The notes under the pieces: generated by a model
Databases searched by the model: none
What the model was told of the DNA's origin: nothing
Seen by the model: the letters and a program-made list of their open reading frames with translations, nothing else
Program-made: the position numbers and the translations under genes
In this document: in pieces, positions 1 through 17,710 of the stretch
How positions within the stretch are numbered: position 1 is the first letter of the stretch
Layout of the letters: each line of letters opens with the position of its first letter
DNA from: a bacterium
GTDB taxonomy: Bacteria > NPL-UPA2 > JAUVJM01
NCBI GenBank assembly: GCA_030606215.1
Contig: JAUWGW010000006.1
Coordinates: forward strand, 2,207-66,206
Direction: 5' to 3'
Length of the DNA: 64,000 nucleotides

Positions 1-477
1 AGGTGCAGATGCGGCAGGAGAGGATGTCTTGAGGCAATTGCTTCAGGCTGGGCTATTCTTTCCCGTGTTAGGGAGGAGTTAAGGCAAGGTAGAGAATCTA
101 AGATTTCAAAATTAGTCAACTCCCCACCAGAACATAAGGCAATCAGGTATGTCTTTCAAGCAGCAAGAGAAGGGGACAAATTTGCTCTTCAGGTTATTAA
201 TGAAGCAGGTCATTTCTTAGGGCTGGCAATAGCTAATGCGATAAATTATGCTGATCCGGGATTAGTTGTTCTTGCAGGTTATGTAACATATAAGAGTAGA
301 GGAATGCTTCTACCCATCATCAGGGAAACTGTTAAGGAACATACGGTTAATGGCAGGTTAAGGACAATCAGGATAGAAGAAGGAAGCCTGGGGGAAAACA
401 GCGCACTTATTGGGGCGGCAACGCTTGTTTATCAAGGTGTATTTGGTATAACTTCATCGTCCTGCATTTCACCTTAG
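1..477 (+). CDS. ROK-family protein (NagC/XylR/glucokinase-like), C-terminal part; 5' end lies outside the window
   Basis: Frame 1 is open from the window edge to TAG at 475-477. The C-terminal sequence ...IANAINYADPGLVVLAGYV...SALIGAA... matches the ROK-family C-terminal region. The ORF track did not list it because it has no in-window start. Confidence 0.55.
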   Translation, partial: RCRCGRRGCLEAIASGWAILSRVREELRQGRESKISKLVNSPPEHKAIRYVFQAAREGDKFALQVINEAGHFLGLAIANAINYADPGLVVLAGYVTYKSRGMLLPIIRETVKEHTVNGRLRTIRIEEGSLGENSALIGAATLVYQGVFGITSSSCISP

Positions 478-500
478 CTCTAGCTGCAGGGGATACACTC

Positions 501-1964
501 ATGTTATCCGTAGAAGACAGAGAGATACTCAGAGAAAAAGTTTATGCACTTCTTGAGGATGTTGGTATGAAAGTTGAGAATGAGGAAGTTTGCTCTTTCT
601 TGCTTAAGAACGGTTGTTTTGAGACTCCCTCTAAAAGAATAAGAATACCCAAGAAGTTAATAGATGGAATGGCAATTTCACAGAAAAAAACTCAAAGTGA
701 GGATGATAAAGACCAGGAGCTAATCTTTCCCTGTGGAGTGGATTGGGCGCATTCCATAATCTGGAATAAGAAACAAGATGATATGAGAGATGTATTAAAA
801 AAGAGATTTTTAATGTCTGCTTTTGATTGCGGTCCCACTAAATACTATGATTACAAAAAGAAGGAAAGTATTCCGGTGGATACGGAAATATTTATTGAAA
901 TGAAGAAGTTTGCTCAGGCTACTCCTGAGATAGGTTATATCAGCACGTGGTACAGGCAGGGTGTCCCTGCGAAAATAGAAAGATTGGATTCTTTGATTCT
1001 TGGGCTTAAGCATACAGACAAGTTAGATGGTATTGAAGCTATATATCCAGAGGTAATAAAGTATTTAAAGGAGGCAAGTGAAATAATAACTGGTAGAGAT
1101 GGTGATTCAAGTTATTTAGCCGGTTCGGAATGTATTACTTCTCCTCTTGTATTGGAGAGAAGGTCTGCTGAGGACATATTAGAAAGGAAGAAGAGAGGAA
1201 TAAACAGGTACCATGTTGCTTCCATGCCTACCATAGGAGTATCCACTCCGGTTACCGTAGCGGGAGCTATTGTAATGTCAGCAGCAGAAATCTTAGGTGG
1301 TATGGCTATCTGTTTCCTTCTTGACCCCAAATCAGACCTCTCCGGCAGGATGATTTCAATGGTTACTGATATGAAGACGGGGAATTCTCTCAGTAGTGGA
1401 CCGGAGGTAAGTCTGGTTAATATAGGGGTGAAAGAACTGTTTGATGCTTTCTGGGGAGGGCATCTCTGGGTTGAGGTATTTTTCAGTCCTTCAGCAAAAG
1501 AGCCAGGTTTAATGACAGTATATGAAAACCTTTATGGAGCTTATCGCTATTCTAAGCTAACCAGGAACCCGGATATTCCCTACCCGGGAATGGGAACTTT
1601 AGGCGATGGAGGAATAGGTTCTCCAACTCAATTTATTCTGGATATGGAGATAAGGAAATCTGAGTTTGCTCTCAAAGACAGTATAGATGTTGATGAAGAA
1701 ACCCTCCCTTTCGTCGATATTTGTAAAATGACTGAGGAAAGAAAAGAATTCTTAAGCAGTGAACATACCTTGAAACATTTCCGGGAACTCTGGTCATCAG
1801 ACATACTTAATTTTAAAGGAGATGGAAAAAATATTCTAAATAGATGTGATGAGGTGTGGAGAGAGAATGTCAAAAAATGGGAACCTCCTGAATGGCCGGA
1901 GGATAAAATCAAAGCCCTGAACAATTTATTGGAAAGGGCAAAAGAGGAGCTTTTAAATGCCTGA
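501..1964 (+). CDS. MttB-superfamily protein (trimethylamine/glycine-betaine:corrinoid methyltransferase family; no in-frame amber codon, so non-pyrrolysine)
   Basis: 487 aa. The N-terminus LSVEDREILREKVYALLEDVGMKVENEEVCSFLLKNGCFETPSKRIRIP fits the MttB/MtgB N-terminal pattern (IHxASLEILExxGV...EEAL.LL..AGA.V.G.RVRIP). Size is typical of the family. AGGGGA-like RBS upstream. A paralog lies at 6367-7827. Confidence 0.6.
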   Translation: MLSVEDREILREKVYALLEDVGMKVENEEVCSFLLKNGCFETPSKRIRIPKKLIDGMAISQKKTQSEDDKDQELIFPCGVDWAHSIIWNKKQDDMRDVLKKRFLMSAFDCGPTKYYDYKKKESIPVDTEIFIEMKKFAQATPEIGYISTWYRQGVPAKIERLDSLILGLKHTDKLDGIEAIYPEVIKYLKEASEIITGRDGDSSYLAGSECITSPLVLERRSAEDILERKKRGINRYHVASMPTIGVSTPVTVAGAIVMSAAEILGGMAICFLLDPKSDLSGRMISMVTDMKTGNSLSSGPEVSLVNIGVKELFDAFWGGHLWVEVFFSPSAKEPGLMTVYENLYGAYRYSKLTRNPDIPYPGMGTLGDGGIGSPTQFILDMEIRKSEFALKDSIDVDEETLPFVDICKMTEERKEFLSSEHTLKHFRELWSSDILNFKGDGKNILNRCDEVWRENVKKWEPPEWPEDKIKALNNLLERAKEELLNA

Positions 1965-3012
1965 GAAGATTCGGCTTGGTTTAGTTCGGTGTGACACACA
2001 CAGCTATTATTTTGGCGCAATGCTTAACAAATGCGACCCTCTGCTCTTACAGAAAAATAATTATGTTGTTCATCACTATCTCACCAATATATATAACCCG
2101 AAGCGCTTAACTATGCCAAAGGTCACAGGGTTCAGATTGGTCAAGGTGTACGACTATAATCCAGAGGAGGCAAAAAAGTTTTCTGAAACCTTCCTGAGTA
2201 AGCCTCAAATATGCGAGACCTTAGAGAAAATGACAGAGGGTATTGATGCAGTCTTCATCGCTGACTGTGATGGAGGAGGTGGAGACCATTTAAAGTTGGC
2301 GACCCCTTTCTTGAAGAAAGGCATCCCCGCTTTTGTTGATAAACCATTCGCATCAACTTTAAGAGATGCAAAAGCAGTTGTTGCATTGGGGAAGAAATAT
2401 AATGCTCCAATTTTCAATTCTTCAATTCTAAGTGTTGTTCCTGCTGCAGACCAATTCAAAAATAGGATTAATGAAATTGTCAGAGCATATTGGCCCGTTC
2501 CCTCTTCACTCCCTCCTGCAGGGAGTATTTTGGGTGTGGTGAAGGGTGTTGGAGGTGCCTTTTCCCAGGAACTTAAAGGTAAAGCGATTACTGGCGGGTT
2601 AGAAGAGCGGTTAGCCTATGTCATTCATGGTATTGCGCTCGGGCTAAACCTTTTTGGAAGAAGTGTGGAATGGGTGGAGTGTATGGGGACCCTTCCCCTT
2701 GAATATCTGCATATGCATCTTAAGAGCGGAGTTGAAATCTTGGTAATGAATACTTCCATAGATTTCTTTCCGGAATCTTGCTCCTTCTATGCCGCGGCAT
2801 ATAGTAAATTTGGCACTATCCACTCTCAACCTATAGGTGACCCCGAATTCATTGGAGGAGGTGCGAAGATTCTGCGGCTCTTCAAGAAGATGATTTTAAC
2901 AGGAAAACCACCTGTTCCATATGAGGACATCCTTGAACACATTGCTGTTGTAGAAGCCGGTCAATTAGCACAGAAGACGGGGAAGCGGGTTTATCTAAAA
3001 GATATCACGTAG
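1957..3012 (+). CDS. Divergent Gfo/Idh/MocA-like oxidoreductase-fold protein; the dinucleotide-binding GxGxxG is replaced by RCDTHSY
   Basis: 351 aa. The block [58 protein letters not shown] aligns with the Gfo/Idh/MocA core (DAVxIATP..H......AL.AGKHVLCEKP.A....EA..M...A.K.G). AAGAGGAG RBS 7 nt upstream. ATG overlaps the stop of the upstream gene. A paralog lies at 7847-8878. Confidence 0.5.
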   Translation: MPEKIRLGLVRCDTHSYYFGAMLNKCDPLLLQKNNYVVHHYLTNIYNPKRLTMPKVTGFRLVKVYDYNPEEAKKFSETFLSKPQICETLEKMTEGIDAVFIADCDGGGGDHLKLATPFLKKGIPAFVDKPFASTLRDAKAVVALGKKYNAPIFNSSILSVVPAADQFKNRINEIVRAYWPVPSSLPPAGSILGVVKGVGGAFSQELKGKAITGGLEERLAYVIHGIALGLNLFGRSVEWVECMGTLPLEYLHMHLKSGVEILVMNTSIDFFPESCSFYAAAYSKFGTIHSQPIGDPEFIGGGAKILRLFKKMILTGKPPVPYEDILEHIAVVEAGQLAQKTGKRVYLKDIT

Positions 3013-3021
3013 GGAAGACAT

Positions 3022-3981
3022 ATGCTTAATAAAATTAATATGTTAAGGTCGATGTATCGGATACGTTTCTTTGAAGAGAAAGCAAAGAAACTTTATAAAG
3101 AGGGTATGATGGCTGGCGATTCCTTAGGAGCGCTTCATTCCTATATTGGTGAGGAAGCCATAGCAGTTGGTGCTTGCGCTACACTTAAAAAAGGTGACTA
3201 TGTATTAAGCACTCATAGAGGTCATGGTCACTGTATTGCTAAAGGTGGTAACATAAAGAGGATTATGGCTGAACTTCAAGGGAAAGAAACAGGTTACTCC
3301 CGAGGGAGAGGCGGTTCAATGCACCTTTTTGCTCCTGAGATAGGATTCATGGGTGGGAATGGGATTGTAGGAGGTGGTATTCCAATTGCAGTTGGCACGT
3401 CTTACTCAGCCAGCTACAGAGAGACAGATCAGGTTACAATATGTTTCTTTGGTGATGGAGCTGCAACTCAAGGGACATTCCACGAATCCTTAAACATAGC
3501 TTCGCTATGGAAGTTACCGGTTATATTCGTCTGTGAAAACAATCTTTACGCTGTTACTACCCCTGTGTCAGAGACGATATCTATACCAAATATTGGAGAT
3601 AGAGCATGTGCTTATGGTATGCCAGGGAAGGTCGTAGATGGTAACGATGTTTTGCAGGTTTATGAAACTGTCTTAGAAGCTGTAAATAGAGCACGAGCTA
3701 AAGAATGGCCAACATTAATTGAATGCAGGACATATCGCTGGGACCCTCATTGTTTTGTTATCCCTGAAACGAGGGGAGGAGATGAGATAAAAGATTGGAA
3801 GACCAAGGACCCAATTGCCCGCTTTGAGAAGATTCTTTTAGATGAAGGCGCTATAACAGGAGAGCAAGTGGGAAAGATAAGGTCAGAGATTATTAAAGAG
3901 ATAGATGAGGCAGAGGAATTTGCCAGAAATAGCCCGTATCCAGATGTTGTGGAATTCAAAAGAGAGGTAGATGTTTACTGA
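3022..3981 (+). CDS. TPP-dependent 2-oxoacid dehydrogenase E1 component, alpha subunit (PdhA/AcoA family)
   Basis: 319 aa. TPP-binding motif FFGDGAATQGTFHESLNIASLWKLPVIFVCENNLYAV (GDG...NN). E1-alpha motifs ...THRGHGHCIAKG... and RGRGGSMH are present. Confidence 0.85.
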   Translation: MLNKINMLRSMYRIRFFEEKAKKLYKEGMMAGDSLGALHSYIGEEAIAVGACATLKKGDYVLSTHRGHGHCIAKGGNIKRIMAELQGKETGYSRGRGGSMHLFAPEIGFMGGNGIVGGGIPIAVGTSYSASYRETDQVTICFFGDGAATQGTFHESLNIASLWKLPVIFVCENNLYAVTTPVSETISIPNIGDRACAYGMPGKVVDGNDVLQVYETVLEAVNRARAKEWPTLIECRTYRWDPHCFVIPETRGGDEIKDWKTKDPIARFEKILLDEGAITGEQVGKIRSEIIKEIDEAEEFARNSPYPDVVEFKREVDVY

Positions 3982-4026
3982 ACCCCGTGTCATTCTGACC
4001 CTGAGTGAAGCGAAGGGGAAGAATCT

Positions 4027-5031
4027 ATGGAAGGCAGCATGCGAGAAATAAGGTATGTTGATGCTTTAAATGAAGCACTATGTGAAGAAATGGAGAGAGA
4101 TAAAAATGTCTTTCTCATTGGAGAAGATATAGGTCCCTTAGGAGGAGGTTTTGGAGTAAGCAAAGGGCTCTTTGATAAGTTTGGTGAGAAGAGAGTGAGA
4201 CAAACACCAATCTCAGAGTCAGCCATCATAGGAACGGCAGTTGGAACCGCAATGACAGGTTTGAAGCCAATTGCTGAGATAATGTATATAGATTTTATCA
4301 CCTGCGGGATGGATCAGGTAATAAATCAGGCGGCAAAACTTTCTTTCATGTCCGGAGGCGGTATAAAAATTCCTCTGGTTATCAGGACACAACAGGGAAT
4401 TGGAACGAGGGAAGCCGCCCAGCATAGCCAGAACTTAGAAGCCTGGTTTGTCCACACTCCAGGTCTTAAGGTTGTGATGCCTGCAACTCCCTATGATGCG
4501 AAAGGATTGCTCAAAGCAAGTATCAGGGATGATTCGCCTGTAGTCTTTATTGAGAATAGACTCCTGTATTTCAAGAAAGATACTGTGCCTGAAGGTGAGT
4601 GGTTAGTTCCCTTAGGAGAAGCTGAAATTAAAAGAGAAGGGAATGATATTACTGTAATTGCTACTTCTCTTATGGTACATAAGGCATTGGAAACCGCAGC
4701 TACTCTTTCGCCGGAAATAAGTGTAGAGGTAATTGATTTAAAAACTTTGGTGCCACTTGATATAAAGAGAATAATTGAGTCAGTGAAGAAAACAGGCAAA
4801 ATTTTGGTTCTTCATGAGGCACCTACAAGAGGAGGAGTAGGGGCAGAGATATTAAGAGAAGTAATGAAGGAAGCATTTAGGTATTTAGTTACTCCACCAA
4901 GAGTTCTTGGAGGTTTAAATACACCTATTCCCTTCTCTCCTCCTCTGGAGGACGTTTGTGTACCCCAGACAAAAGATATTGTCAAAATGGTGAGAGAGAT
5001 TATAAAGGAGAAATGGAATGAGCGAAATTGA
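4027..5031 (+). CDS. TPP-dependent 2-oxoacid dehydrogenase E1 component, beta subunit (PdhB/AcoB family; transketolase-like C-terminal domain)
   Basis: 334 aa. IRYVDALNEAL...VFLIGEDIG..GGGFGVSKGLFDKFGEKRVRQTPISESAIIGTAVGTAMTGLKPIAEIMYIDF is a typical E1-beta N-terminus. It lies immediately downstream of the alpha subunit. Confidence 0.85.
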   Translation: MEGSMREIRYVDALNEALCEEMERDKNVFLIGEDIGPLGGGFGVSKGLFDKFGEKRVRQTPISESAIIGTAVGTAMTGLKPIAEIMYIDFITCGMDQVINQAAKLSFMSGGGIKIPLVIRTQQGIGTREAAQHSQNLEAWFVHTPGLKVVMPATPYDAKGLLKASIRDDSPVVFIENRLLYFKKDTVPEGEWLVPLGEAEIKREGNDITVIATSLMVHKALETAATLSPEISVEVIDLKTLVPLDIKRIIESVKKTGKILVLHEAPTRGGVGAEILREVMKEAFRYLVTPPRVLGGLNTPIPFSPPLEDVCVPQTKDIVKMVREIIKEKWNERN

Positions 5032-6367
5032 AGATTTAAAAAAAGATGCTCTGGCTTACATTTGCCCGCATTTTGCATCTAACACAGAACTTTCTAAAGG
5101 ACCAAAGATATTTGTCAAAGGAGAAGGCTGTTACGTTTATGATATAGAAGGAAACTGCTATCTGGATACCTTTGCATCTCTTCTCACCACAATATGCGGT
5201 CATAATCGCTCTGAGATAGCGAAGGTGGTTCAGGAACAAATGAAGCAGTTAGAGTTTTTCCCAAATTATGTGGATACTTTCACCGTGCCGCTTATAAAGT
5301 TGGCAAAGAAATTAGCTGAGATTACTCCAGGAGACCTTTCGGTCTCCTTCTTTGTTAACAGCGGTTCTGAAGCCTGTGAGACTGCCATAAAGATGGCAAG
5401 ACAGTACCACTTAGAAAAAGGAGAACGTTCAAGATATAAGATTATTGCAAGGAGATATTCTTATCATGGGACAACCCTGGGTGGCGTATCAGCCACTGGG
5501 ATACCATGGTTCAGGGAATATTTCGAGCCTCTACTTCCTGGATTTATCCATGTAATTGCTCCACATTGTTTCAGGATGGGACTTGAGCCAGATGAATGTA
5601 AAGAAATCTGCTTAAAGGCAATGGAGGAGACAATTCTCTGGGAGGGGCCTGAGTCAGTTGCGGCAGTTATCCTTGACCCTATTCCTGGTTCAAATATGGG
5701 TTATCCACTTCCTCCTGATGGGTATCTTCAGGGCATAAGAAAGATATGTAATAAATATGGGATTTTGCTTATTTTTGATGAAGTGCAGACTGGTTTTGGT
5801 AAGACAGGAAAAATGTTTGCTTGTGAACACTGGGATGTGACACCGGACATTATGGCTATTGGTAAAGGGTTTACTGGTGGATATATACCTCTGGCTGCAA
5901 CCATAACCACACCCGGGATATATGAAGTATTCAAGAAACCCGGTTCTGAATTCCGCAGCGGCAGCACATATGGAGGGCATACGACTGCATGTGCTGCTAC
6001 TCTTACTAATATAGATATAATTGAGAAGGAAAATCTTGTAGAAAAAGCGGCGGAGATGGGAAAGTATTTAAAAAGTAAATTGGAGGAACTATATAAGTAC
6101 AGAATAGTTGCAGATTTTCGTGGTATAGGGATGCTCTGGGCAATAGAACTGATGGCGGATAGAGAAAAGAGAAAGCCGCTTGATACAAAGCTCAATGTAG
6201 GCAGCTGGATAAGAGAATGGTGCTGGAAGAATAAGATGATTCTCAGGAATAATGCCGATATTCTCGTTATTGCACCTGCGCTTGTGATGACAAAAGACCA
6301 GATAGATGAAATGCTTGGCAAAATTGACCAGGCTATAGGAGAAGCAATTAAACAATTCAATCTGTGA
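5018..6367 (+). CDS. Class-III (omega) aminotransferase, PLP-dependent
   Basis: 449 aa. Motifs GSEACETAIKMARQY, ILLIFDEVQTGFGKTGKMFA and MAIGKGFTGGYIPLAA (PLP-binding Lys) are characteristic of the aspartate aminotransferase fold type I, class III. Overlaps the upstream gene by 14 nt. Confidence 0.8.
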   Translation: MSEIEDLKKDALAYICPHFASNTELSKGPKIFVKGEGCYVYDIEGNCYLDTFASLLTTICGHNRSEIAKVVQEQMKQLEFFPNYVDTFTVPLIKLAKKLAEITPGDLSVSFFVNSGSEACETAIKMARQYHLEKGERSRYKIIARRYSYHGTTLGGVSATGIPWFREYFEPLLPGFIHVIAPHCFRMGLEPDECKEICLKAMEETILWEGPESVAAVILDPIPGSNMGYPLPPDGYLQGIRKICNKYGILLIFDEVQTGFGKTGKMFACEHWDVTPDIMAIGKGFTGGYIPLAATITTPGIYEVFKKPGSEFRSGSTYGGHTTACAATLTNIDIIEKENLVEKAAEMGKYLKSKLEELYKYRIVADFRGIGMLWAIELMADREKRKPLDTKLNVGSWIREWCWKNKMILRNNADILVIAPALVMTKDQIDEMLGKIDQAIGEAIKQFNL

Positions 6368-7827
6368 TGACAATGGCACTCAACTATGCTTATCCTACTT
6401 ATAAAATGGATATAACGAGTGAAATACTTGATGAATGCTGTGATATTGCTGTGAGATTATTGAAAGAAGTTGGCATGGAGGTAGGGCATGAAAGATTCCT
6501 GGATACAATAAAAAGGAGAAGTGGAATAAAAATTGAAGGGAAGAAGGTTCGTTTTGAAGAAGCCCTCGTGCGAAAAAATTTAGAGAGATGCATTGCTGAG
6601 AGTAAAGAGGTGTTGAAGCAGAAAGAAGAAGGGCGAGATAACAAGTGGAGGCTGATGTCAAATGGATATTCTATGTGTGTTATTGATATTGAAACTGATG
6701 AAATCAGGCCTGCGACCTGTCAGGATTTAAGAGACCTGATTAAACTGAAGGATTCTTTTGGAATAGTTGGGTCCTACCCGGTTATGCCACAAGACCTTCC
6801 TCCTTTAATGAGAGCTATCGCTTGTTTTAAAATCTGCTGTGAGGCAAGTGACAAAACCAGGCCATATGATTACCAGAATATAAAACAAACAAGATACATA
6901 TACGAAATGTGTAAAGTAATGGGGAAAAGTTTTGAGATAGTATTAAATATCTCACGAACAATGGCGATAGACAGGAATGACATGGATGTTTTCTTTGATT
7001 TTTATCCTGATTGGAAAAAGGGTGGTGATATATCTCTGACAGCTAATAGTTACCCCATGCTTGGAATAAATAAGCCTATCACTGCAACAGGGTGTATTGC
7101 ATTACACATGGCTGAGATGCTTGGAGTACAGGTTTTGTTTAACTTATTTGACCCGGAAATAAAATTAGCGTTTAAGGTTCGAGCTGGGTATCCTACTGAT
7201 ATGAGACACACATGCTGGGCATTTGGTTCTCCCAAAGCTCATCTTTATGCATACTTGAATTCCAGGATTTTTCCCAACCTATGCAAATGTGATAATGGAA
7301 ATTATACGCCTGACACTGTTCGGTTAGAAACAAGCTCAAGCGCAGTGGATGAACAGGCTGCTCTGGAAAAAATAGGGGTGGCAATGGTGGCGGCTCTTCA
7401 AGGATGCAAAAGTTTCTCATATGCTGGAAATCTCTGTGTGGATGACCTTTTTAGCGGTGTGCAGTTTGTAATAGATGTGGAGATATTTAATTATATCAAG
7501 GAAACGATAGAATCTTTCGATCCCCATCCGGACATTTTCAGTATGGACGGGTTATATGAAATGCTGAGGGATGTAAGCATAGGAAAGGAGCAGTTCCTAT
7601 CCCATCCGGACACAGCCGCAAAGTTAAGGAATATTCTACCGTCATCGGAGCGGATTCATCGTGAGAAACTGAGCTCATGGTTTGAGCATAGAAAGACACT
7701 CAAAGATAGGGCAAGGGAAGAATGTATAGAAAGGATAAAAAATTTCCCTGAGTATCATTTGCCTGAGGATAAGCAGAAAGAGCTGGATGCGATATACAAG
7801 AGAGCAAACGCTGACCTTGTGAAATAA
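6367..7827 (+). CDS. MttB-superfamily protein, second paralog (non-pyrrolysine)
   Basis: About 486 aa. ITSEILDECCDIAVRLLKEVGMEVGHERFLDTIKRRSGIKIEGKKVRFEE matches the same N-terminal pattern as 501-1964. ATG at 6367 overlaps the TGA of the aminotransferase; GTG at 6364 is an alternative start. Confidence 0.6.
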   Translation: MTMALNYAYPTYKMDITSEILDECCDIAVRLLKEVGMEVGHERFLDTIKRRSGIKIEGKKVRFEEALVRKNLERCIAESKEVLKQKEEGRDNKWRLMSNGYSMCVIDIETDEIRPATCQDLRDLIKLKDSFGIVGSYPVMPQDLPPLMRAIACFKICCEASDKTRPYDYQNIKQTRYIYEMCKVMGKSFEIVLNISRTMAIDRNDMDVFFDFYPDWKKGGDISLTANSYPMLGINKPITATGCIALHMAEMLGVQVLFNLFDPEIKLAFKVRAGYPTDMRHTCWAFGSPKAHLYAYLNSRIFPNLCKCDNGNYTPDTVRLETSSSAVDEQAALEKIGVAMVAALQGCKSFSYAGNLCVDDLFSGVQFVIDVEIFNYIKETIESFDPHPDIFSMDGLYEMLRDVSIGKEQFLSHPDTAAKLRNILPSSERIHREKLSSWFEHRKTLKDRAREECIERIKNFPEYHLPEDKQKELDAIYKRANADLVK

Positions 7828-7846
7828 AAATTGGGAGGGGTTGGGG

Positions 7847-8878
7847 ATGAAAAAGTTTCGTATTGGGATGATTCGTTGTGATACACATTCCTACTGGTAT
7901 GGAGCATTTATGGCAAAATGCGATATTGCGCTCTTGCAGAAAAACAGTGTTGCTGTCCATGATTACTTTTGCAGATTTAACGAACTGGCCATTTCGCTTG
8001 TTCCGGGACTTGAAATCGTCAGGGTATGGGATTATGATTCCGCTACGGCACAGAAATTCTCCGAGACATTTCTTGGCAAACCACAGGTCTGCGAAACAGT
8101 GGAGGAAATGACAGATGGTATTGATGCGGTGTTTATTGCTGATTCCACTGGAGATGGATCAGACCATCTGGAACTTGCTTCGCCTTTTTTGAAGAAGGGG
8201 ATACCTGCCTTTGTTGATAAGCCATTTGCTTCGAGGTTTAAAGATGCAAAGGCAATGGTGAGGCTGGCGAAGAAGAATGATGTGCCGCTTATGTCAGCAT
8301 CTTTATTGCAAGGATATACCGATACGGCGATAGAGTTTCGCCGTCGGTTCAAAGAGATCGGCCCTATCCAACTTGCGGTGAAAAAGGAAATAGAATTTCG
8401 CCGACGATTTAGAGAAACTAGCCCTATCCGACTTGCGGTGGTGAAAGGACTGACAAGCCTTGCCGGTGTCATTCACGGTATATCCATGGTGCAGGGCTTT
8501 TTCGGAGATGGTGTAGAGTGGGTGGAATGTATGGGTTCGCTTCCTCTGGAGTTCCTACTTCTGCATTATAAGAACGGGTTGCAAGCCATTGTGATGAGTC
8601 CTTCGAATGAGAGTTTTCACTACACCTGCTCCTTCCATTGTTCCGTCTATAGTAGGTTCGGTAAGATCCATAATCGTGGAGTTCTCCATATGCCACCCAT
8701 AGGTGATTTTGAATTTCCCACGGGCACACGGCGAATCGTACTTCAGTTTAAGCAGATGCTAAAAATACGTAAGCCTCCCATCCCTTATGAATTTCTACTT
8801 GAACTGATTGCTATCATGGATGCCGGAAGGATGGCTCAACAAAAAGGAAGGCGAATATATTTGAAGGATGTAAAATAA
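7847..8878 (+). CDS. Divergent Gfo/Idh/MocA-like protein, second paralog; contains an in-frame 2 x 20-aa tandem duplication
   Basis: N-terminus [20 protein letters not shown] and core [58 protein letters not shown] parallel 1957-3012. The GGGAGGGG RBS favours ATG at 7847; the track's 7841 is a TTG start. Confidence 0.5.
8330..8449 (+). repeat. In-frame imperfect tandem duplication, 2 x 60 nt, encoding [20 protein letters not shown] / [20 protein letters not shown]
   Basis: Direct comparison of 8330-8389 with 8390-8449 gives about 80% identity. The paralog at 1957-3012 has only one copy of the corresponding segment. Confidence 0.6.
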
Positions 8879-8895
8879 GAAAGGGGGAATCAGGA

Positions 8896-9528: not shown

Positions 9529-9623
9529 AATTTAACATCGGACAGAGTGAAATTTAGCACTTAGTGTGGAATATTTCTGAAAAGGGGCAAAAACATGGAA
9601 ATGAAAGTAAAGGAGGGTTTGTC

Positions 9624-12374
9624 GTGCTTATAAAATCTGTATTGTTTGTTTGGTTAGCTCTTTGTTTTTCTTCTTTGGGTATCGCTGAAGAACAGGGGCT
9701 GGTAGCCTATTACGATTTTAACGAAGGCTCGGAGCTAATAGCACATGATAGGAGTGGAAATAAGAATGATGGGAAGATAATAGGAGCTACCTGGGTAAAG
9801 GGTAGATATGGCACTGCTTTAGAGTTTGATGGGATAAATGACTATGTTGACTGCGGGGAGAAACCAAGTTTTGATGTTAAAAATGTAGTTACCCTTGAGG
9901 CTTGGGTTTTACCTACGAAGGCCCCTTCTGGAGAACCAGCAATAGTAGGCAAAAAAATCTCCAGATATGCATTGACCTATTACAAAAATGGGAACTGTTA
10001 CTTCTATATATCTGCTGGTGTTAATCATTGTGTAGCTCGCCACCTTGCCGTTGGTGTTTGGCATCACATTGTAGCAACATTTGATGGAACAACAATGAAT
10101 CTGTACGTTGATGGAGATTTAAAGGACACTCGCACCTCACTTTACAAAACGATAGATAGTCGTGGTGGAAATCTTTTTATTGGCAAGCGGGATAACGATT
10201 ATTTCTGCGGCATAATTGACGAAGTTAGAATATATAATCGTACTTTATCCGAAGAAGAAATTCAAACCCATTATCAGTCAGATGCAAGAATGAAAAAAGC
10301 TGTAGTAAATAATAAAACCGGAACAGATACCATGACAAAATTCAGATATAGTCCTGATCAGAGAAGTGAACCCCTTCCACCCTGGCCGCCTGTAGAAGTG
10401 AGGAAGAGAAAAGTTATTGTATGGGGAAGAGAATACACCTTTTCTAATCTCCCTATCCCGGTCTCTATTATTTCTCAGGGGCAAGAGTTATTAGCTAGTT
10501 CTCCAAAGCTTGAAGTTCTGGTAGAGGGAAAACCGCTGGTATGGCAGCCAGTGCGAATTGAAAGAATTTCACCTGCGGTTGCCAAAGTAATTTCTCAGGG
10601 GAAAGCAGGAGACTTTCTAATTCAAGGAGAGAGCTTCGTTGAATTCGATGGGCTGGTCTGGGTTCAACTAAGGCTCAGTTGTACCCAGGAAAAGTTAGTC
10701 TCTATCAAAAATTTGAGCCTCAAAATTCCTCTGAAATCACCCCCAGTTCAGCTTTTTTCCCATCAGCTCGTTAGGACAGCTAATTTTCAAAGCTCGTTTC
10801 AGTTATTGACTACTCCAGAACAGTTCTATTACACTGGCGCATTGCCTCATGAAGGTTGGAAAGGAGAATTTACCCCACAGGTCTGGGTAGGAAATGTCGA
10901 TCGGGGACTGGCATGGATTAGTGAATCTCCACATTCATGGGAAATCGGTCATAAAGAAGCCGTATTGGAACTGATCCCAGACAGCAAAAAAGTGTGGCTG
11001 AACGTGACATTTGTATCAATTCCCATTAGATTGGAAAAGGAAAGGAATATAGAATTCGGACTAATGGCGACCCCTGTGAAACCTTGGCCAACTGATAGAT
11101 CTCTTTTGCGGGTATCCCATACTGGTGGGGGGGCTTTTGAAAAGCTCCGGGATACCTACATTATTCCGCGAAAGGAAGATGGAAAGACCGGACTTGACGA
11201 CTTTGCCAAGGAGGGGGTTCGTACGCTCGTCCTGTGGGACTACTACTCGGATGTCTGGGGGTTTCCAAAGATTGTCAGCTCTAAGAATAGAGAGTTTGCT
11301 AAGGCATTTGTACAGAAGGCACATAAGCTGGGTATTCGTGTCATGCCATATCAGGCTACGTTGCAGATCCTGCCCGAAAGACATCCTGAATTTGAGGAAC
11401 TCAAAAAGCGGTTTCAAGTTTATCCTCAGTGTGAAGAGAAGGGATATCACAAAGTTAAGCTAACAGATGACTTTATAATGTGGTATGCATCGCAAGCGGC
11501 AGCACATATGCGTGAATTTGACCTGGACGGTTACTACTTGGATACCTTTAATGACCCAGACCGTTTTAACCACAGTGATGTCGTAATGTATGATATACTG
11601 CAAACCCGAAAATTATACAAAGCCTTATATGAGATAGTTTACAAGGAAAAGGGTAAGCATGGCATTATTTTCCTTCATGATTCTGCACCGCCTCTATTTC
11701 CCCTGGCAAGTTTTTCTGACCTCCGCCTAACAGGTGAAATGCAATACTGGAGATTGGCTTTCCAGCACCTGACAAGAAGTAGCAATCCTTTGCTGCAGGC
11801 TATTCCACTTGAACAGATTCAGGTATGGGATATGGGGGAGGTTGTAGGGGTGCCAACGGTTTGGTGCTGGAAGCATCCCGACAAAGAGTATAGGGTGAGA
11901 ACCGGGTTGGATTTGCTAACATATAAGACTGGGGAGTTATTCGATACGGAGGAAGTGTTTAGCATTATGGGACTTTTTCACATACCAATTTTTGCTCGAC
12001 CTCTCTGGTGGCGATCCCCCAGCCCAGTGCCGAGAATGTCTCAGATATGGAAGCTGGAGGATGAATTTGGATTGCAGAATGCCAGATGGTACCCCTATTG
12101 GGAAAACGCAGGTCTCATTTCTGTCTCTCCCCCAGAAGTAAAAGTAAGCTTCTATCTCAAAGAAGACTGTTCATTACTAATGCATGTTGCTAATCTGGGA
12201 GAGAAGGAGAACATAACTCAGATTAAATTTACTAGCTCCTCCGGCCTGAAGAGCAAACGGTTTGAGATAATAAATGCTGTGGGAAGTTATCATGTTAGAG
12301 GAAGATTGGGGGGAGTGGAATTGAGATTACCTCCAGGTCAATCCACACTCTTGATGCTTCGGGTGAAGAAATAA
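9624..12374 (+). CDS. Secreted LamG/concanavalin-A-like lectin-domain protein with a large C-terminal domain of uncertain function (possibly glycoside-hydrolase-like TIM barrel)
   Basis: About 916 aa. GTG at 9624 has AAGGAGGG 7 nt upstream and yields a signal-peptide-like N-terminus (LIKSVLFVWLALCFSSLGIA). The LamG_3-like segment is GLVAYYDFNEGSELIAHDRSGNKNDGKIIGATWVKGRYGTALEFDGINDYVDCG...LYVDGDL. The track's ATG at 9564 is an alternative start. Confidence 0.55.
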   Translation: MLIKSVLFVWLALCFSSLGIAEEQGLVAYYDFNEGSELIAHDRSGNKNDGKIIGATWVKGRYGTALEFDGINDYVDCGEKPSFDVKNVVTLEAWVLPTKAPSGEPAIVGKKISRYALTYYKNGNCYFYISAGVNHCVARHLAVGVWHHIVATFDGTTMNLYVDGDLKDTRTSLYKTIDSRGGNLFIGKRDNDYFCGIIDEVRIYNRTLSEEEIQTHYQSDARMKKAVVNNKTGTDTMTKFRYSPDQRSEPLPPWPPVEVRKRKVIVWGREYTFSNLPIPVSIISQGQELLASSPKLEVLVEGKPLVWQPVRIERISPAVAKVISQGKAGDFLIQGESFVEFDGLVWVQLRLSCTQEKLVSIKNLSLKIPLKSPPVQLFSHQLVRTANFQSSFQLLTTPEQFYYTGALPHEGWKGEFTPQVWVGNVDRGLAWISESPHSWEIGHKEAVLELIPDSKKVWLNVTFVSIPIRLEKERNIEFGLMATPVKPWPTDRSLLRVSHTGGGAFEKLRDTYIIPRKEDGKTGLDDFAKEGVRTLVLWDYYSDVWGFPKIVSSKNREFAKAFVQKAHKLGIRVMPYQATLQILPERHPEFEELKKRFQVYPQCEEKGYHKVKLTDDFIMWYASQAAAHMREFDLDGYYLDTFNDPDRFNHSDVVMYDILQTRKLYKALYEIVYKEKGKHGIIFLHDSAPPLFPLASFSDLRLTGEMQYWRLAFQHLTRSSNPLLQAIPLEQIQVWDMGEVVGVPTVWCWKHPDKEYRVRTGLDLLTYKTGELFDTEEVFSIMGLFHIPIFARPLWWRSPSPVPRMSQIWKLEDEFGLQNARWYPYWENAGLISVSPPEVKVSFYLKEDCSLLMHVANLGEKENITQIKFTSSSGLKSKRFEIINAVGSYHVRGRLGGVELRLPPGQSTLLMLRVKK

Positions 12375-12393
12375 GATCGTTAAAAATGATCGG

Positions 12394-15245: not shown

Positions 15246-15246
15246 A

Positions 15247-16299: not shown

Positions 16300-16414
16300 A
16301 GATTGGATTAGCTTGAAGTTTGATAGATGACATTTTTGACTTGCAATAACAGTAATGTCATTTACTACTTGTGATGAGAGGAAAAAGCTACATCAAGTTT
16401 CGAAACATGATGGG

Positions 16415-16479
16415 TTAATGATGATGTTGTCTATCAATCTTGTTTTGCCGATCCACACGGCGAGAGCTATGAGCACAGC
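16415..16479 (-). pseudogene. Relic copy of the panC 3' terminus (last ~20 codons); about 83% identical to 18443-18507
   Basis: Aligned by eye: ttaatgatgatgttgtctatcaatcttgttttgccgatccacacggcgagagctatgagcacagc versus ttgacgataatgttgtctatcagtcttgttttaccaatccacacggcaatggcgatgaggacagg. The minus-strand translation gives ...LIALAVWIGKTRLIDNIIIN, parallel to the real PanC C-terminus. Confidence 0.45.
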
Positions 16480-16645
16480 TTCAAAGTGTAGTAAAGTAAA
16501 CTATTCTTGATTATTCATTATTTAAATCTAACACAGGAATTCCGCAACTAAAAAACTTTTCTTGTAATCCACCATAAACTGGCACTTAAGTGCCCAATCT
16601 GTTGGAGGAGCAAATCCGCATTGATTTTTTTCTAACAGGATTTTC

Positions 16646-16673
16646 TTGACGGGGGGTGGGAGTGAGTGATAAT
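16646..16673 (+). promoter_or_regulatory. Putative sigma70-type promoter (TTGACG-16nt-GATAAT) for the 16747-18412 gene pair
   Basis: Read directly: ttgacg ggggggtgggagtgagt gataat. It lies about 75 nt upstream of ATG 16747. Confidence 0.3.
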
Positions 16674-16746
16674 ATCAGTTACTGGGGAAGACGGTCTCTG
16701 GAGTCAAAAGGTGGTATTAGCCTGCGTTAATTTGGAGGGAAGAGAC

Positions 16747-17697: not shown

Positions 17698-17710
17698 TGG
17701 AGGATTACGC

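What the first reader, a model, noticed from the sequence alone, without database searches (positions are those of the whole stretch)
501..8878. Duplicated two-gene module (MttB-superfamily protein + degenerate Gfo/Idh/MocA-like protein) bracketing an E1alpha/beta-aminotransferase core: candidate undescribed amine or quaternary-amine catabolic system
Seen in sequence: two paralogous pairs (501-1964 + 1957-3012; 6367-7827 + 7847-8878) with the same order and tight or overlapping junctions. They flank a TPP-dependent E1 alpha/beta pair (no E2 or E3 nearby) and a class-III aminotransferase. All seven genes are on one strand with intergenic gaps of 20 nt or less.

Established knowledge: non-pyrrolysine MttB homologues (MtgB, MtpB, MtcB, MtyB) demethylate glycine betaine, proline betaine, carnitine and gamma-butyrobetaine. 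They need a corrinoid protein and a methylcorrinoid:THF methyltransferase. Neither is encoded here, and neither MttB-like ORF has an in-frame TAG.

Inference: in place of the corrinoid partner, each MttB-like gene is coupled to a Gfo/Idh/MocA-fold protein. Together with the aminotransferase and the E1 decarboxylase/dehydrogenase this suggests an unrecognised route: demethylation or C-N cleavage of a methylated amine, then transamination and 2-oxoacid decarboxylation. The ROK regulator fragment upstream and a URO-D/MtaA-like gene 7 kb downstream (15247-16299) may be relevant.
Basis: partly seen in the sequence, partly recalled or inferred. Interest (0 to 1): 0.75.

Follow-up and report, generated by a model that had tools for sequence, protein, structure and literature searches.

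The report
Orphan MttB-like genes in sugar operon
Two very divergent relatives of the corrinoid-dependent methylamine methyltransferases sit, with no corrinoid protein nearby, in a sugar-utilisation operon beside thiamine-dependent enzymes, an aminotransferase and odd dehydrogenase-like proteins; the same gene set recurs in several bacterial phyla, so it marks an uncharacterised catabolic pathway and not a known betaine system.

Summary
The seven genes exist as described and all family calls hold. "Duplicated module" is misleading. The two MttB-like proteins are only 23% identical and belong to two separately conserved clades. The two Gfo-like proteins are 48% identical. One junction is 45 nt, not 20 nt or less.

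The segment opens an 18-kb operon, running from a ROK regulator to a PIG-L deacetylase, that has a glycan/amino-sugar character.

Two independent modules recur elsewhere:
- Clade A travels with the class-III aminotransferase (66% of 35 loci) and an E1 or split transketolase (66%). It rarely travels with the Gfo-like protein (11%).
- Clade B travels with Gfo-like proteins (6 of 8 loci), sugar aminotransferases and varied glycosidases.

The Gfo-like proteins have a full Gfo/Idh/MocA fold, but an invariant R-C-D-x-H loop replaces GxGxxG.

No corrinoid protein, E2/E3 or cobalamin riboswitch is present. One related operon inserts a methylcorrinoid:THF methyltransferase and MTHFR beside clade B.

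Best reading (confidence about 0.4): substrate-specific demethylases for glycan-derived methylated sugars or amines, feeding transamination and TPP-dependent cleavage, with the corrinoid carrier encoded elsewhere. A betaine substrate is unsupported. This is an uncharacterised, multi-phylum system: a new variant of a known kind.

The parts
1..474 (+). 3' part of a ROK-family regulator gene, cut by the window edge; likely regulator of the operon
   Evidence: PF00480, 80.7 bits. Full-length homologues in the same position carry an HTH domain plus ROK (L085 and L001). ROK lies directly upstream of clade A MttB-like genes in L006, L085, L088, L090 and L098.
501..1964 (+). MttB-superfamily protein, clade A (487 aa), non-pyrrolysine
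   Evidence: PF06253 79 bits; TIGR02369 101.6 bits against a cut-off of 525. The clade profile hits MttB 7xcl at E 2e-22, and the pyrrolysine position aligns to Phe. Homologues are 53-75% identical in Planctomycetota, Omnitrophota, Latescibacterota, Armatimonadota and Ratteibacteria MAGs.
1957..3012 (+). Gfo/Idh/MocA-fold protein A (351 aa) with R-C-D-T-H in place of GxGxxG
   Evidence: PF01408 only, 41 bits. 48% identical to 7847-8878. Family motif shown in alignment A1. Its start overlaps the stop of 501-1964 by 8 nt.
3022..3981 (+). TPP-dependent E1 alpha subunit (PDH-E1 type)
   Evidence: PF00676 274 bits; TIGR03182 363 bits against a cut-off of 393.85. Best solved relative is human PDH E1alpha, E 1.5e-55.
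4027..5031 (+). E1 beta subunit
   Evidence: PF02779 + PF02780; NF006667 374 bits against a cut-off of 321.
5018..6367 (+). Class-III (omega-amine:pyruvate type) aminotransferase
   Evidence: PF00202 344 bits. Nearest solved structures are omega-transaminases and putrescine or GABA transaminases.
6367..7827 (+). MttB-superfamily protein, clade B (486 aa), non-pyrrolysine
   Evidence: PF06253 97 bits. AF2 pLDDT 92.9. Foldseek to MttB, MtgB and 4yyc at E about 1e-21, TM 0.63-0.68. Start overlaps the aminotransferase stop by 1 nt.
7847..8878 (+). Gfo/Idh/MocA-fold protein B (343 aa) with the R-C-D-T-H loop
8896..9528 (+). DUF1559 protein with a prepilin-type N-terminal methylation motif (PVC-type secreted protein)
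   Evidence: PF07963 + PF07596. Recurrent near Gfo-like genes.
9564..12374 (+). Large LamG/GH123_N-domain protein, a putative glycan-binding or glycan-cleaving protein
   Evidence: PF13385 107 bits and PF19543 67 bits. Homologues occur in 17 Gfo-like loci.
12394..13710 (+). Sugar-type ABC solute-binding protein
   Evidence: PF01547 and PF13416.
13707..15245 (+). DUF3604 / CehA-McbA-like metallohydrolase
   Evidence: PF12228 58 bits. NF038032 57 bits, below its cut-off of 80.
15196..16299 (+). URO-D-fold protein of the MtaA/CmuA methyltransferase type
   Evidence: PF01208 100 bits. TIGR01463 78.6 bits against hemE 25 bits. PDB MtaA 4ay7 at E 1.4e-8. URO-D genes recur in clade A and Gfo-like loci.
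16666..17697 (+). NagB-like (glucosamine-6-phosphate deaminase superfamily) protein, weak match
   Evidence: TIGR00502 41.7 bits, E 8e-11, far below its cut-off. No Pfam hit.
17711..18412 (+). PIG-L family N-acetyl-sugar deacetylase; last gene of the + strand block
   Evidence: PF02585 96.9 bits. The next genes (panC, M48 peptidase) are on the - strand.

Best explanation
The segment is the front of an 18-kb glycan/amino-sugar utilisation operon of an uncultivated anaerobe. The operon runs from a ROK regulator to a PIG-L deacetylase. The segment joins two modules that recur independently in other phyla.

Module 1 is the clade A MttB-like protein, the E1alpha/beta pair (elsewhere also or instead a split transketolase with an MtaA-like URO-D protein) and a class-III aminotransferase.

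Module 2 is the clade B MttB-like protein with one or two Gfo/Idh/MocA-fold proteins. In these proteins an invariant R-C-D-x-H loop replaces the dinucleotide-binding loop.

Proposed mechanism, all inferred:
1. The MttB-like proteins are still substrate-specific methyl-donor:corrinoid methyltransferases (MT1). They strip methyl groups from methylated sugars, amino sugars or related amines released from glycans.
2. The corrinoid carrier, its activase and the methyl-THF-forming MT2 are shared and encoded elsewhere, as in Eubacterium limosum.
3. The demethylated primary amine is transaminated by the class-III enzyme to a carbonyl compound.
4. The TPP enzymes cleave or decarboxylate next to that carbonyl.
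5. The Gfo-fold proteins perform or assist a keto-sugar step on the same substrate.

Shown: the families, the folds, the operon structure and the conserved co-occurrence. Not shown: any substrate, any methyl transfer, or any cofactor of the Gfo-like proteins.
For: - Superfamily membership: Pfam scores lie above the gathering threshold. Clade profiles match MttB and MtgB at E 2e-22 and 5e-19. The clade B model matches MttB, MtgB and 4yyc over its full length.
- Clade A co-occurrence: in 35 clade A-centred metagenome loci with at least 5 kb of flank, AT3 occurs in 66%, E1 or split TK in 66%, both in 51%, URO-D in 31% and a canonical GFO in 40%. This holds in varied gene orders.
- Clade B co-occurrence: in 8 clade B-centred loci, Gfo-like proteins are in the operon in 6, and an aminotransferase (AT3 or DegT) in 5. 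Different glycosidases are always present: GH29, GH4, BNR sialidase, GH42-like, GH123, DUF6259.
- L085 repeats the whole seven-gene set with both Gfo-likes downstream.
- Methyl-transfer link: L168 reads Gfo-like - MeTr-like methyltransferase - PanB - MTHFR - clade B MttB-like - GH4. The MeTr-like protein scores 293 bits against NF005719 (cut-off 259) and matches PDB 4o0q at E 6e-52. Gaps in that operon are 1-60 nt.
- The window's URO-D protein is MtaA/CmuA-like.
- Precedent for MT1 paralogues encoded apart from the shared corrinoid protein and MT2: PMC8604678.
- Sugar context in the window: ROK, sugar SBP, LamG/GH123_N, NagB-like, PIG-L.
- Anaerobic lifestyle: 2-oxoacid:ferredoxin oxidoreductase in the window.
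Against: - No corrinoid-binding domain, activase or cobalamin riboswitch appeared in the window or in about 170 related loci. The precomputed Pfam lists agree.
- The MT2/MTHFR linkage is a single locus out of about 170.
- Scores against the curated MttB equivalog are far below its cut-off (about 100 bits against 525).
- Glycine-betaine-binding residues are not kept, so the active site is remodelled and could serve different chemistry.
- No characterised MttB member acts on a sugar or on an O-methyl ether.
- Non-pyrrolysine members are known only with quaternary amines. Their products are tertiary amines, which are not transaminase substrates.
- The role of an E1 without E2/E3 is undefined.
- The Gfo-like proteins lack the NAD loop, so a redox role is uncertain.
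Confidence: 0.4

Rival explanations
1. The MttB-like TIM barrels have been recruited to chemistry other than methyl transfer. They could act as a cofactor-free or metal-dependent isomerase, lyase or deaminase on amino or keto sugars. They would work in a keto-sugar pathway with Gfo-fold proteins, sugar aminotransferases and TPP-dependent C-C cleaving enzymes.
For: - No corrinoid partner was found in about 170 loci.
- The active-site residues of MtgB are replaced. An invariant Asp-Asp sits where the cation-pi Phe lies.
- Both clades carry conserved Cys and His residues.
- At least four distinct MttB-like clades sit beside DegT or AT3 aminotransferases, canonical GFO dehydrogenases, AP_endonuc_2 and amidohydrolases. 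This is the usual toolkit of keto- and amino-sugar pathways.
Against: - Every characterised member of the superfamily is a corrinoid methyltransferase (PMC13080624, PMC8604678).
- L168 places clade B between MTHFR and a methylcorrinoid:THF methyltransferase.
- MtaA/CmuA-like proteins co-occur.
Confidence: 0.25
2. This would be a catabolic system for quaternary amines (betaines, choline, carnitine-like compounds). Each MttB-like enzyme would work with its adjacent Gfo-like protein instead of a corrinoid protein, followed by transamination and 2-oxoacid decarboxylation.
For: - Superfamily membership holds.
- Clade A is linked to the aminotransferase and E1.
- Clade B is linked to Gfo-like proteins.
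- The Gfo-like loop D-x-H lies after beta-1, at the topological position of the DxHxxG cobalamin motif.
Against: - Regulators, transporters and neighbours are sugar/glycan-type throughout, with no betaine or choline transporter.
- MtgB substrate-binding residues are not conserved.
- Clade A is accompanied by a Gfo-like gene in only 11% of loci.
- Demethylating a quaternary amine once does not yield a transaminase substrate.
Confidence: 0.1
3. The cluster is biosynthetic. It would make a modified (N-methyl) amino sugar or amino-polyol by oxidation (Gfo-fold), transamination and methylation. This follows the GenD2-GenS2-GenN or NtdC-NtdA logic, with the MttB-like enzymes running in the methylating direction.
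For: - GenD2, WlbA and inositol dehydrogenases are among the best structural matches of the Gfo-like model.
- Aminotransferases are constant partners.
Against: - ROK, LacI and GntR sugar repressors, solute-binding proteins, exo-glycosidases, deacetylase and deaminase-like genes mark catabolic loci.
- There are no nucleotidyltransferase or glycosyltransferase genes in the operon.
Confidence: 0.07
4. There is no dedicated pathway. The E1 pair is the cell's pyruvate or acetoin dehydrogenase E1, and the other genes are unrelated neighbours in a gene-dense genome.
For: E1beta passes the NCBIfam PDH E1beta subfamily cut-off (374 bits against 321).
Against: - Start and stop codons overlap at four of six junctions.
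- The same families recur together across phyla and gene orders.
- There is no E2/E3 in the window, and the organism has a ferredoxin-dependent 2-oxoacid oxidoreductase.
Confidence: 0.03

Closest known systems
Non-pyrrolysine MttB-superfamily quaternary-amine methyltransferase systems: MtgB/MtgC/MtgA of Desulfitobacterium hafniense, and MtpB, MtcB, MtyB and MthB with the shared MtqC/MtqA/RamQ of Eubacterium limosum
   Same: - Same superfamily and fold, and no pyrrolysine.
- Several substrate-specific paralogues per genome, encoded apart from the shared corrinoid protein and MT2. This is the E. limosum arrangement (PMC8604678).
- One related locus links clade B to an MtgA/MeTr-type MT2 and to MTHFR.
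   Different: - About 18-20% identity to the solved members, and about 100 bits against a cut-off of 525 for the curated model.
- MtgB residues R312, H348 and F356 are not kept.
- No corrinoid protein was seen in any of about 170 loci.
- The context is glycan/sugar loci of PVC-type and candidate phyla, not acetogen or methanogen C1 metabolism.
- The conserved partners are TPP enzymes, aminotransferases and Gfo-fold proteins.
MttB/MttC trimethylamine methyltransferase of Methanosarcina (7xcl, 7xcn)
   Same: TIM-barrel fold with a C-terminal helical extension. The clade A profile matches it at E 2e-22.
   Different: No in-frame UAG. Phe lies at the pyrrolysine position in clade A. There is no MttC-type partner.
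Gfo/Idh/MocA sugar dehydrogenases that work with aminotransferases (GenD2/GenS2, WlbA/WlbC, NtdC/NtdA) or in 3-keto-glycoside routes (DgpA, glycoside 3-dehydrogenases, GH109)
   Same: - The EKP-type Lys (as DKP) and a C-domain His are retained.
- Genomic pairing with aminotransferases, AP_endonuc_2 proteins and glycosidases.
   Different: - GxGxxG is replaced by an invariant R-C-D-x-H, with Asp at the second Gly position.
- Only the N-terminal Pfam model matches, and weakly.
- No solved structure shares the loop.
- Often found in tandem heterologous pairs, and some paralogues have Arg in place of the His.
E1alpha/beta of 2-oxoacid and acetoin dehydrogenase complexes. From memory, not tested here: the E1-like AviB1/AviB2-type pairs that add or remove two-carbon branches on keto sugars
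   Same: Heterotetramer-type E1 alpha and beta subunits with TPP domains.
   Different: - No E2/E3 in 64 kb.
- Conserved linkage to an MttB-like gene and an omega-aminotransferase, often together with a split transketolase.
- The alpha subunit falls just below the PDH equivalog cut-off.
Corrinoid-dependent O-demethylase systems of Desulfitobacterium and Acetobacterium (MT1, corrinoid protein, MT2, activase), and the aerobic P450 6-O-methyl-galactose demethylase as a functional analogue
   Same: - MtaA/CmuA-like URO-D proteins are present.
- The MT2 in L168 is most similar to the D. hafniense O-demethylase MT2, 4o0q.
- The idea that methylated sugars must be demethylated before catabolism is established for aerobes (PMC6292453).
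   Different: No corrinoid protein or activase is in the loci. The substrates of the known systems are aryl methyl ethers. No anaerobic sugar demethylase has been described in the searched literature.

Membership tests
MttB superfamily (PF06253) | Profile match above the Pfam gathering score | tested here: met
   79.4 and 97.2 bits against a cut-off of 25.
MttB superfamily (PF06253) | TIM barrel with C-terminal extension, superposable on MttB/MtgB | tested here: met
   Clade B model has pLDDT 92.9. Foldseek to 7xcl, 9yce, 2qne and 4yyc gives E about 1e-21 and TM 0.63-0.68. Clade A was tested only by profile (E 2e-22 to 7xcl).
Trimethylamine methyltransferase MttB proper (TIGR02369) | Equivalog score, and a pyrrolysine encoded by an in-frame UAG | tested here: not met
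   101.6 and 103.6 bits against a cut-off of 525. The ORFs are uninterrupted. Phe aligns to the pyrrolysine position in clade A.
Glycine betaine methyltransferase MtgB | Substrate-binding residues Y97, R312, H348 and F356 (PMC13080624) | tested here: not met
   In the clade B profile alignment to 9yce, R312 is variable (Pro in the window protein), H348 is Ser, and F356 is an invariant Asp. The Tyr is present in the window protein but not conserved in the clade.
Three-component corrinoid methyltransferase system (MT1 - corrinoid protein - MT2 - activase) | A B12-binding-domain protein and an MT2 encoded with the MT1 | tested here: not met
   None is in the 64-kb window. No DxHxxG..SxL..GG motif appears in real ORFs of 86 loci. 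An MT2 plus MTHFR occur only in L168. Separate encoding is known in E. limosum, so this does not exclude the mechanism.
Three-component corrinoid methyltransferase system | Substrate-dependent methylation of Co(I) corrinoid | not testable with these tools
   Needs anoxic enzyme assays.
Gfo/Idh/MocA oxidoreductases | Two-domain fold (N-terminal Rossmann domain plus C-terminal alpha/beta domain) | tested here: met
   [not shown]
Gfo/Idh/MocA oxidoreductases | GxGxxG dinucleotide-binding loop after beta-1 | tested here: not met
   The loop is R-C-D-[TLS]-H-[GAS]. R10, D12 and H14 are invariant in A1. About 70 aligned N-termini from 79 loci carry C-D-x-H-type variants. The five regex matches to GxGxxG fall on sequences that carry the same C-D-x-H loop (GCDLH, RCDMH).
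Gfo/Idh/MocA oxidoreductases | EKP-motif lysine and a C-domain catalytic His/Asp | tested here: inconclusive
   D124-K125-P126 and H210 are invariant. The Asp of the usual D-x-x-x-H is not kept, and C-terminal Pfam models do not match.
Gfo/Idh/MocA oxidoreductases | NAD(P) binding and redox activity | not testable with these tools
   Needs cofactor analysis of purified protein.
2-oxoacid dehydrogenase complex E1 | E1alpha (PF00676) and E1beta (PF02779/PF02780) subunits | tested here: met
   274, 152 and 115 bits.
2-oxoacid dehydrogenase complex E1 | Cognate E2 and E3 genes | tested here: not met
   None is in the window. None was seen in the annotated related loci.
Class-III aminotransferases | Full-length PF00202 match | tested here: met
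   343.9 bits. Nearest structures are omega-transaminases. The substrate was not determined.
MtaA/CmuA methyltransferases (URO-D fold) | Subfamily score | tested here: not met
   TIGR01463 78.6 bits against a cut-off of 235.4. This is still well above hemE at 25 bits.

The most novel reading that the evidence does not exclude
The R-C-D-x-H Gfo/Idh/MocA-fold proteins are a new class of cofactor carrier. In them a Rossmann dinucleotide site has been rebuilt to hold a corrinoid (His-on through the D-x-H loop) or a metal. Together with clade B MttB-like TIM barrels they would form a previously unknown type of demethylase, working on methylated sugars in anaerobic glycan degraders. The Gfo-fold partner would replace the classical B12-binding-domain protein.

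The evidence does not exclude this:
- The D-x-H lies at the beta-1/alpha-A loop, where DxHxxG lies in B12 domains.
- A Gly-rich D-G-x-G-x-D-H follows beta-4.
- In L168 a Gfo-like gene stands beside an MT2 in an operon with an MT1 and no corrinoid protein.
- MtrA is a precedent for a non-homologous Rossmann-type cobalamin binder (PMC4915002).

Against it:
- Only 10% of Gfo-like loci hold an MttB-like gene.
- Some paralogues have Arg in place of the His.
- The other NAD-site elements are retained.
Probability: 0.1. Interest if true: 0.9.

Novelty: new variant of a known kind. Interest (0 to 1): 0.6.

Why it matters
All characterised MttB-superfamily enzymes demethylate small methylammonium compounds in methanogens, acetogens and some marine bacteria.

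This work finds at least two (probably four or more) deep clades of the superfamily. They are embedded in glycan-utilisation loci of Planctomycetota, Verrucomicrobiota/Lentisphaerota, Omnitrophota, Latescibacterota, Armatimonadota and relatives. Their conserved partners are TPP enzymes, aminotransferases and remodelled Gfo-fold proteins, which no described system has.

If these are demethylases for methylated sugars or glycan-borne amines, they would fill a real gap. Methylated sugars are common in algal, plant and bacterial polysaccharides. Only an oxygen-dependent P450 route is known for removing the methyl group. How anaerobes do it is open.

If they are not methyltransferases, the superfamily has a second chemistry.

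Either way the finding is directly testable. The proteins are soluble-looking and cytoplasmic, about 340-490 aa long. Both modelled proteins (MttB-like B and Gfo-like B) gave confident models. The Gfo-like family (88 clusters at 50% identity with E <= 1e-30, and more than 530 loci in species-representative genomes) is itself uncharacterised.

Tried and rejected
- Corrinoid partner. A regex for DxHxxG..SxL..GG over all ORFs of the window and 86 loci gave one hit, on an antisense shadow ORF. Pfam on every sizeable window ORF found none.
- Cobalamin riboswitch. None in the window at the gathering threshold, none in 1-19500 at E <= 1, and none in nine related loci.
- Rosetta-stone fusions. A profile search of 1.84 billion representatives with the Gfo-like family found no fusions. 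All top hits are 474 aa or shorter. The one long hit, P0372, looks like a chimera or frameshift.
- Further recurrent unknown partners of clade A. Clustering 282 unassigned neighbouring ORFs gave no family in more than 6 loci. Those found were Amidohydro_2, extra URO-D, Peptidase_M55, SDR, GntR/LacI regulators, a cyclase and a sulfatase.
- MT2/MTHFR/PanB homologues of L168 in all other loci: none.
- Promoter and terminator scan of 1-19500: counts equal to shuffled expectation, so uninformative.
- Source contig and organism. The exact-sequence look-up gave no names. The look-up of P0241 found no record, so the DNA upstream of the window and the taxon remain unknown.
- Substrate hint from the LamG/GH123_N protein. 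There are only weak LamG-domain matches in the PDB.
- Literature. Nothing was found on MttB-like genes in Planctomycetes or other glycan loci, on the MttB/URO-D/glycosidase combination, or on anaerobic demethylation of methylated sugars. One MAG paper describes a different uncharacterised MttB clade that is clustered with a corrinoid protein (PMC9324843).
- The two 409-aa TTG-start ORFs at 45720 and 62600 were checked as possible repeats. They are unrelated.

Full report
**1. Observation check**

The seven ORFs lie on the + strand at the stated coordinates. Family assignments are correct:

| Coordinates | Family | Score |
|---|---|---|
| 501-1964 | PF06253 (MttB) | 79 bits |
| 6367-7827 | PF06253 (MttB) | 97 bits |
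| 1957-3012 | PF01408 only | 41 bits |
| 7847-8878 | PF01408 only | 52 bits |
| 3022-3981 | E1_dh | 274 bits |
| 4027-5031 | Transket_pyr + Transketolase_C | 152 + 115 bits |
| 5018-6367 | Aminotran_3 | 344 bits |

Junctions are -8, +9, +45, -14, -1 and +19 nt. The genes are tightly packed, but one gap exceeds the stated 20 nt.

The Gfo-like pair is 48% identical (E 5e-117). The MttB-like pair is only 23% identical over 272 residues (E 6e-11). Their homology over the full length is visible only by profile comparison (hhalign 99.3%, 19% identity).

Neither MttB-like ORF has an in-frame stop. Pfam scans of every sizeable ORF in the 64-kb window found no B12-binding protein, no pterin-binding methyltransferase and no E2 or E3. 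Rfam found no cobalamin riboswitch.

**2. Extent and character of the locus**

The seven genes open a + strand block that runs to 18412. In order it contains:
- a ROK regulator, cut by the window edge
- the seven genes
- a DUF1559/prepilin-type protein
- a 936-aa LamG/GH123_N protein
- a sugar-type ABC binding protein
- DUF3604
- a URO-D-fold protein, closer to MtaA/CmuA methyltransferases (78.6 bits) than to HemE (25 bits)
- a weakly NagB-like protein
- a PIG-L deacetylase

The rest of the window is housekeeping: panC, lysine and arginine biosynthesis, leucine-type enzymes, ribosomal proteins, and a 2-oxoacid:ferredoxin oxidoreductase that points to an anaerobic lifestyle.

The organism is unknown. 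The best relative of the first MttB-like protein (73% identity) is from a Candidatus Ratteibacteria MAG. A 13-kb Logan contig repeats part of the operon.

**3. The MttB-like proteins**

Both pass the Pfam threshold but score about 100 bits against the curated MttB model, whose cut-off is 525. Each belongs to its own well-conserved clade. Mean column identity is 68% for clade A (501-1964) and 59% for clade B (6367-7827).

Clade profiles match solved structures:
- Clade A matches MttB (7xcl) at E 2e-22.
- Clade B matches MtgB at E 5e-19.

The clade B model (pLDDT 92.9) matches MttB, MtgB and the Sinorhizobium protein 4yyc over its full length. Foldseek gives E about 1e-21, TM 0.63-0.68 and 17-20% identity. 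Superfamily membership is therefore met.

Membership of the known functional types is not met:
- In clade A the pyrrolysine position of MttB aligns to Phe.
- In clade B, three of the four residues shown to bind glycine betaine in MtgB (Y97, R312, H348, F356; PMC13080624) are replaced. R312 is variable, H348 is Ser, and F356 is an invariant Asp followed by a second Asp.

**4. The Gfo-like proteins**

The family keeps the EKP-type lysine (as D-K-P), a C-domain His, the Asp at the end of beta-2 and a D-H after beta-4. The GxGxxG loop is replaced by an invariant R-C-D-x-H, with Asp at the second glycine position.

About 70 aligned N-termini from 79 loci carry this loop or a C-D-x-H-type variant of it. 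No solved structure shares the loop.

The family is sizeable. More than 530 stretches occur in species-representative genomes. There are 88 clusters at 50% identity with E <= 1e-30 among 1.84 billion representatives, and no fusions.

Members often occur as tandem, dissimilar pairs. Some paralogues have Arg in place of the His. "Degenerate" is therefore fair for the NAD loop, but the replacement is itself under strong constraint.

**5. Comparative genomics**

*Clade A.* In 35 clade A-centred metagenome loci with at least 5 kb of flank:

| Partner | Share of loci |
|---|---|
| Class-III aminotransferase | 66% |
| E1 pair or split transketolase | 66% (E1 60%, TK 37%) |
| Aminotransferase and a TPP enzyme together | 51% |
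| Canonical GFO dehydrogenase | 40% |
| URO-D protein | 31% |
| ROK regulator | 17% |
| R-C-D-x-H Gfo-like protein | 11% |

Further divergent URO-D proteins occur in 6 loci. Gene orders vary: MttA-E1a-E1b-AT3, MttA-TKn-TKc-UROD-E1a-E1b-AT3, and TKn-TKc-UROD-MttA-AT3. This argues for functional linkage and against shared ancestry alone.

*Clade B.* Eight clade B-centred loci were examined:
- Six have one to three R-C-D-x-H Gfo-like genes in the operon, often adjacent to or overlapping the MttB-like gene.
- Five have an aminotransferase (class III or DegT).
- All have glycan genes, with a different glycosidase each time: GH29, GH4, BNR sialidases, GH42-like, GH123, DUF6259.
- At least a dozen further clade B proteins share a contig of identical length and source with a Gfo-like protein. 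This is indirect support.

*Gfo-like family.* Only 8 of 79 Gfo-like-centred genome loci hold any MttB-like gene. In the sub-family closest to 1957-3012, 9 of 16 loci hold an MttB-like or URO-D gene. The other Gfo-like loci are flanked by LamG, DUF6259 and DUF1559 proteins.

*The window arrangement.* L085 carries the whole set as ROK-MttA-E1a-E1b-AT3-MttB-Gfo-Gfo. The window arrangement is therefore a composite of two recurring modules, with one Gfo-like gene placed after clade A. It is not a duplicated two-gene unit.

*More clades.* Additional MttB-like clades that are neither A nor B sit in the same kinds of loci, beside DegT, Amidohydro_1 and SDR genes.

Other neighbours are sugar ABC transporters, AP_endonuc_2, zinc ADH, CBM9 and FMN reductase.

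**6. Evidence bearing on methyl transfer**

L168 reads DUF6259-DUF6259-Gfo-like(RCDVH)-Pterin_bind-PanB-MTHFR-clade B MttB-like-GH4, with gaps of 1-60 nt.

The pterin-binding protein passes the NCBIfam model for methyltetrahydrofolate:corrinoid methyltransferases (293 bits against a cut-off of 259). It is most similar to the MT2 of a Desulfitobacterium O-demethylase (4o0q, E 6e-52) and to MeTr. It is not a dihydropteroate synthase.

This is the arrangement expected if clade B delivers methyl groups through a corrinoid to THF. It is one locus out of about 170.

No corrinoid protein was seen in any locus (and the precomputed Pfam lists).

In E. limosum the MttB paralogues, the corrinoid protein MtqC, and MtqA/RamQ (with methyl-THF oxidation genes) are in separate clusters (PMC8604678). 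Marine Ruegeria uses a phylogenetically distinct MtgC (PMC12478193). Absence next door is therefore not evidence of corrinoid independence.

**7. Most likely mechanism (confidence about 0.4; every chemical step is inferred)**

1. The operon takes up a glycan-derived compound through the LamG/GH123_N protein and the sugar binding protein, under ROK control.
2. The MttB-like proteins act as substrate-specific MT1 enzymes. They remove methyl groups from a methylated sugar, amino sugar or related amine onto a corrinoid carrier encoded elsewhere.
3. The MtaA-like URO-D protein may be a further MT1 or an MT2.
4. The freed primary amine is transaminated by the class-III enzyme.
5. The E1 pair (elsewhere also a split transketolase) cleaves or decarboxylates next to the new carbonyl.
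6. The Gfo-fold pair acts on a keto-sugar intermediate or supports clade B.
7. PIG-L and the NagB-like protein handle N-acetyl and amino groups.

Each clade B paralogue sits beside a different exo-glycosidase. This fits a set of demethylases for different methylated monosaccharides. Aerobes need a P450 for that step (PMC6292453). No anaerobic route was found in the literature searched.

**8. Rival explanations**

- *New chemistry (0.25).* The barrels have acquired non-methyl-transfer chemistry within keto- or amino-sugar pathways. The remodelled active site and the complete lack of corrinoid genes support this. L168 and the family precedent oppose it.
- *A biosynthetic GenD2/GenS2/GenN-like route (0.07).* The catabolic regulators, binding proteins and glycosidases oppose it.
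- *Chance neighbours with a housekeeping E1 (0.03).* Overlapping junctions and conserved co-occurrence oppose it.

**9. The most novel reading not excluded (about 0.1)**

The R-C-D-x-H Gfo-fold proteins could be a new corrinoid or metal carrier for clade B.

In favour:
- The D-x-H sits at the beta-1/alpha-A loop, where B12 domains carry DxHxxG.
- A Gly-rich D-G-x-G-x-D-H follows beta-4.
- L168 has an MT1, an MT2 and a Gfo-like gene but no classical carrier.
- MtrA shows that a non-homologous Rossmann protein can bind cobalamin His-on (PMC4915002).

Against:
- Most Gfo-like loci lack MttB-like genes.
- Some paralogues lack the His.
- The other NAD-site elements are retained.

**10. Verdict**

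It is wrong about the unit of conservation and probably about the substrate class.

The system is uncharacterised, widespread in glycan-degrading candidate and PVC-type phyla, and experimentally tractable. I rate it a new variant of a known kind, with interest 0.6.

Noticed in passing
L168:5354-11901: An operon in a related metagenome contig reads Gfo-like(RCDVH) - methylcorrinoid:THF methyltransferase (MeTr/4o0q-like) - PanB - MTHFR - clade B MttB-like - GH4. No corrinoid protein is present. It is the only locus of about 170 with C1-folate genes beside an MttB-like gene.
   Followed up: partly
L002:3302-4699; L009:1752-3224; L167:14035-15495; L171:2701-4185: Further MttB-superfamily proteins that belong to neither clade A nor clade B (profile scores 74-169 bits). 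They lie in glycan loci beside DegT aminotransferases, Amidohydro_1, SDR and sialidase genes. This suggests a wider radiation of the superfamily in glycan degraders.
   Followed up: partly
L167:11617-12609; L045:4358-5362; L046:10869-11966: Some Gfo-like paralogues, usually the second gene of a tandem pair, have C-D-K-R-A or C-D-N-R-A in place of C-D-x-H. The loop His is therefore not universal.
   Followed up: no
L008:11059-13977; L084:3059-6905; L091:7045-9900: A recurring sub-module: split transketolase (N and C halves), sometimes a protein of about 340 aa with no family match, and an MtaA-like URO-D protein. It lies next to clade A MttB-like genes and is absent from the window itself.
   Followed up: partly
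window 16300-16665: A 366-nt non-coding gap lies inside the + strand block, with sigma-70-like hexamers at 16646-16673. The NagB-like and PIG-L genes may form a separate transcription unit. There is no Rfam match.
   Followed up: partly
window 20876-32594 (- strand): Eleven contiguous lysine and arginine biosynthesis genes lie on one strand: class I/II aminotransferase, dapB, dapA, dapF, lysA, argH, argG, argF, argD, argB, argJ.
   Followed up: no
window 56896-60844 (- strand): The type I restriction-modification genes hsdS (56896-57732) and hsdM (59357-60844) are separated by a 350-aa protein with no family match and by a DUF6036/AbiEii-like nucleotidyltransferase (58749-59354). This could be an inserted toxin-antitoxin or abortive-infection pair.
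   Followed up: no
window 41212-43536 (- strand): Gamma, beta and alpha subunits of a 2-oxoacid:ferredoxin oxidoreductase. This indicates anaerobic metabolism and makes a classical PDH complex role for the E1 pair less likely.
   Followed up: no
window 33804-36092 (- strand): A second DUF1559/prepilin-type protein (35490-36092) lies next to a Wzy_C O-antigen-ligase-like protein with TPR repeats (33804-35480).
   Followed up: no
window 61317-61403 (- strand): The only RNA gene detected in the window is a tRNA (60.9 bits).
   Followed up: no
P0372 (474 aa, representative library): A Gfo-like protein whose last 220 residues do not match the family. It looks like an assembly chimera or frameshift and not a domain fusion.
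   Followed up: partly
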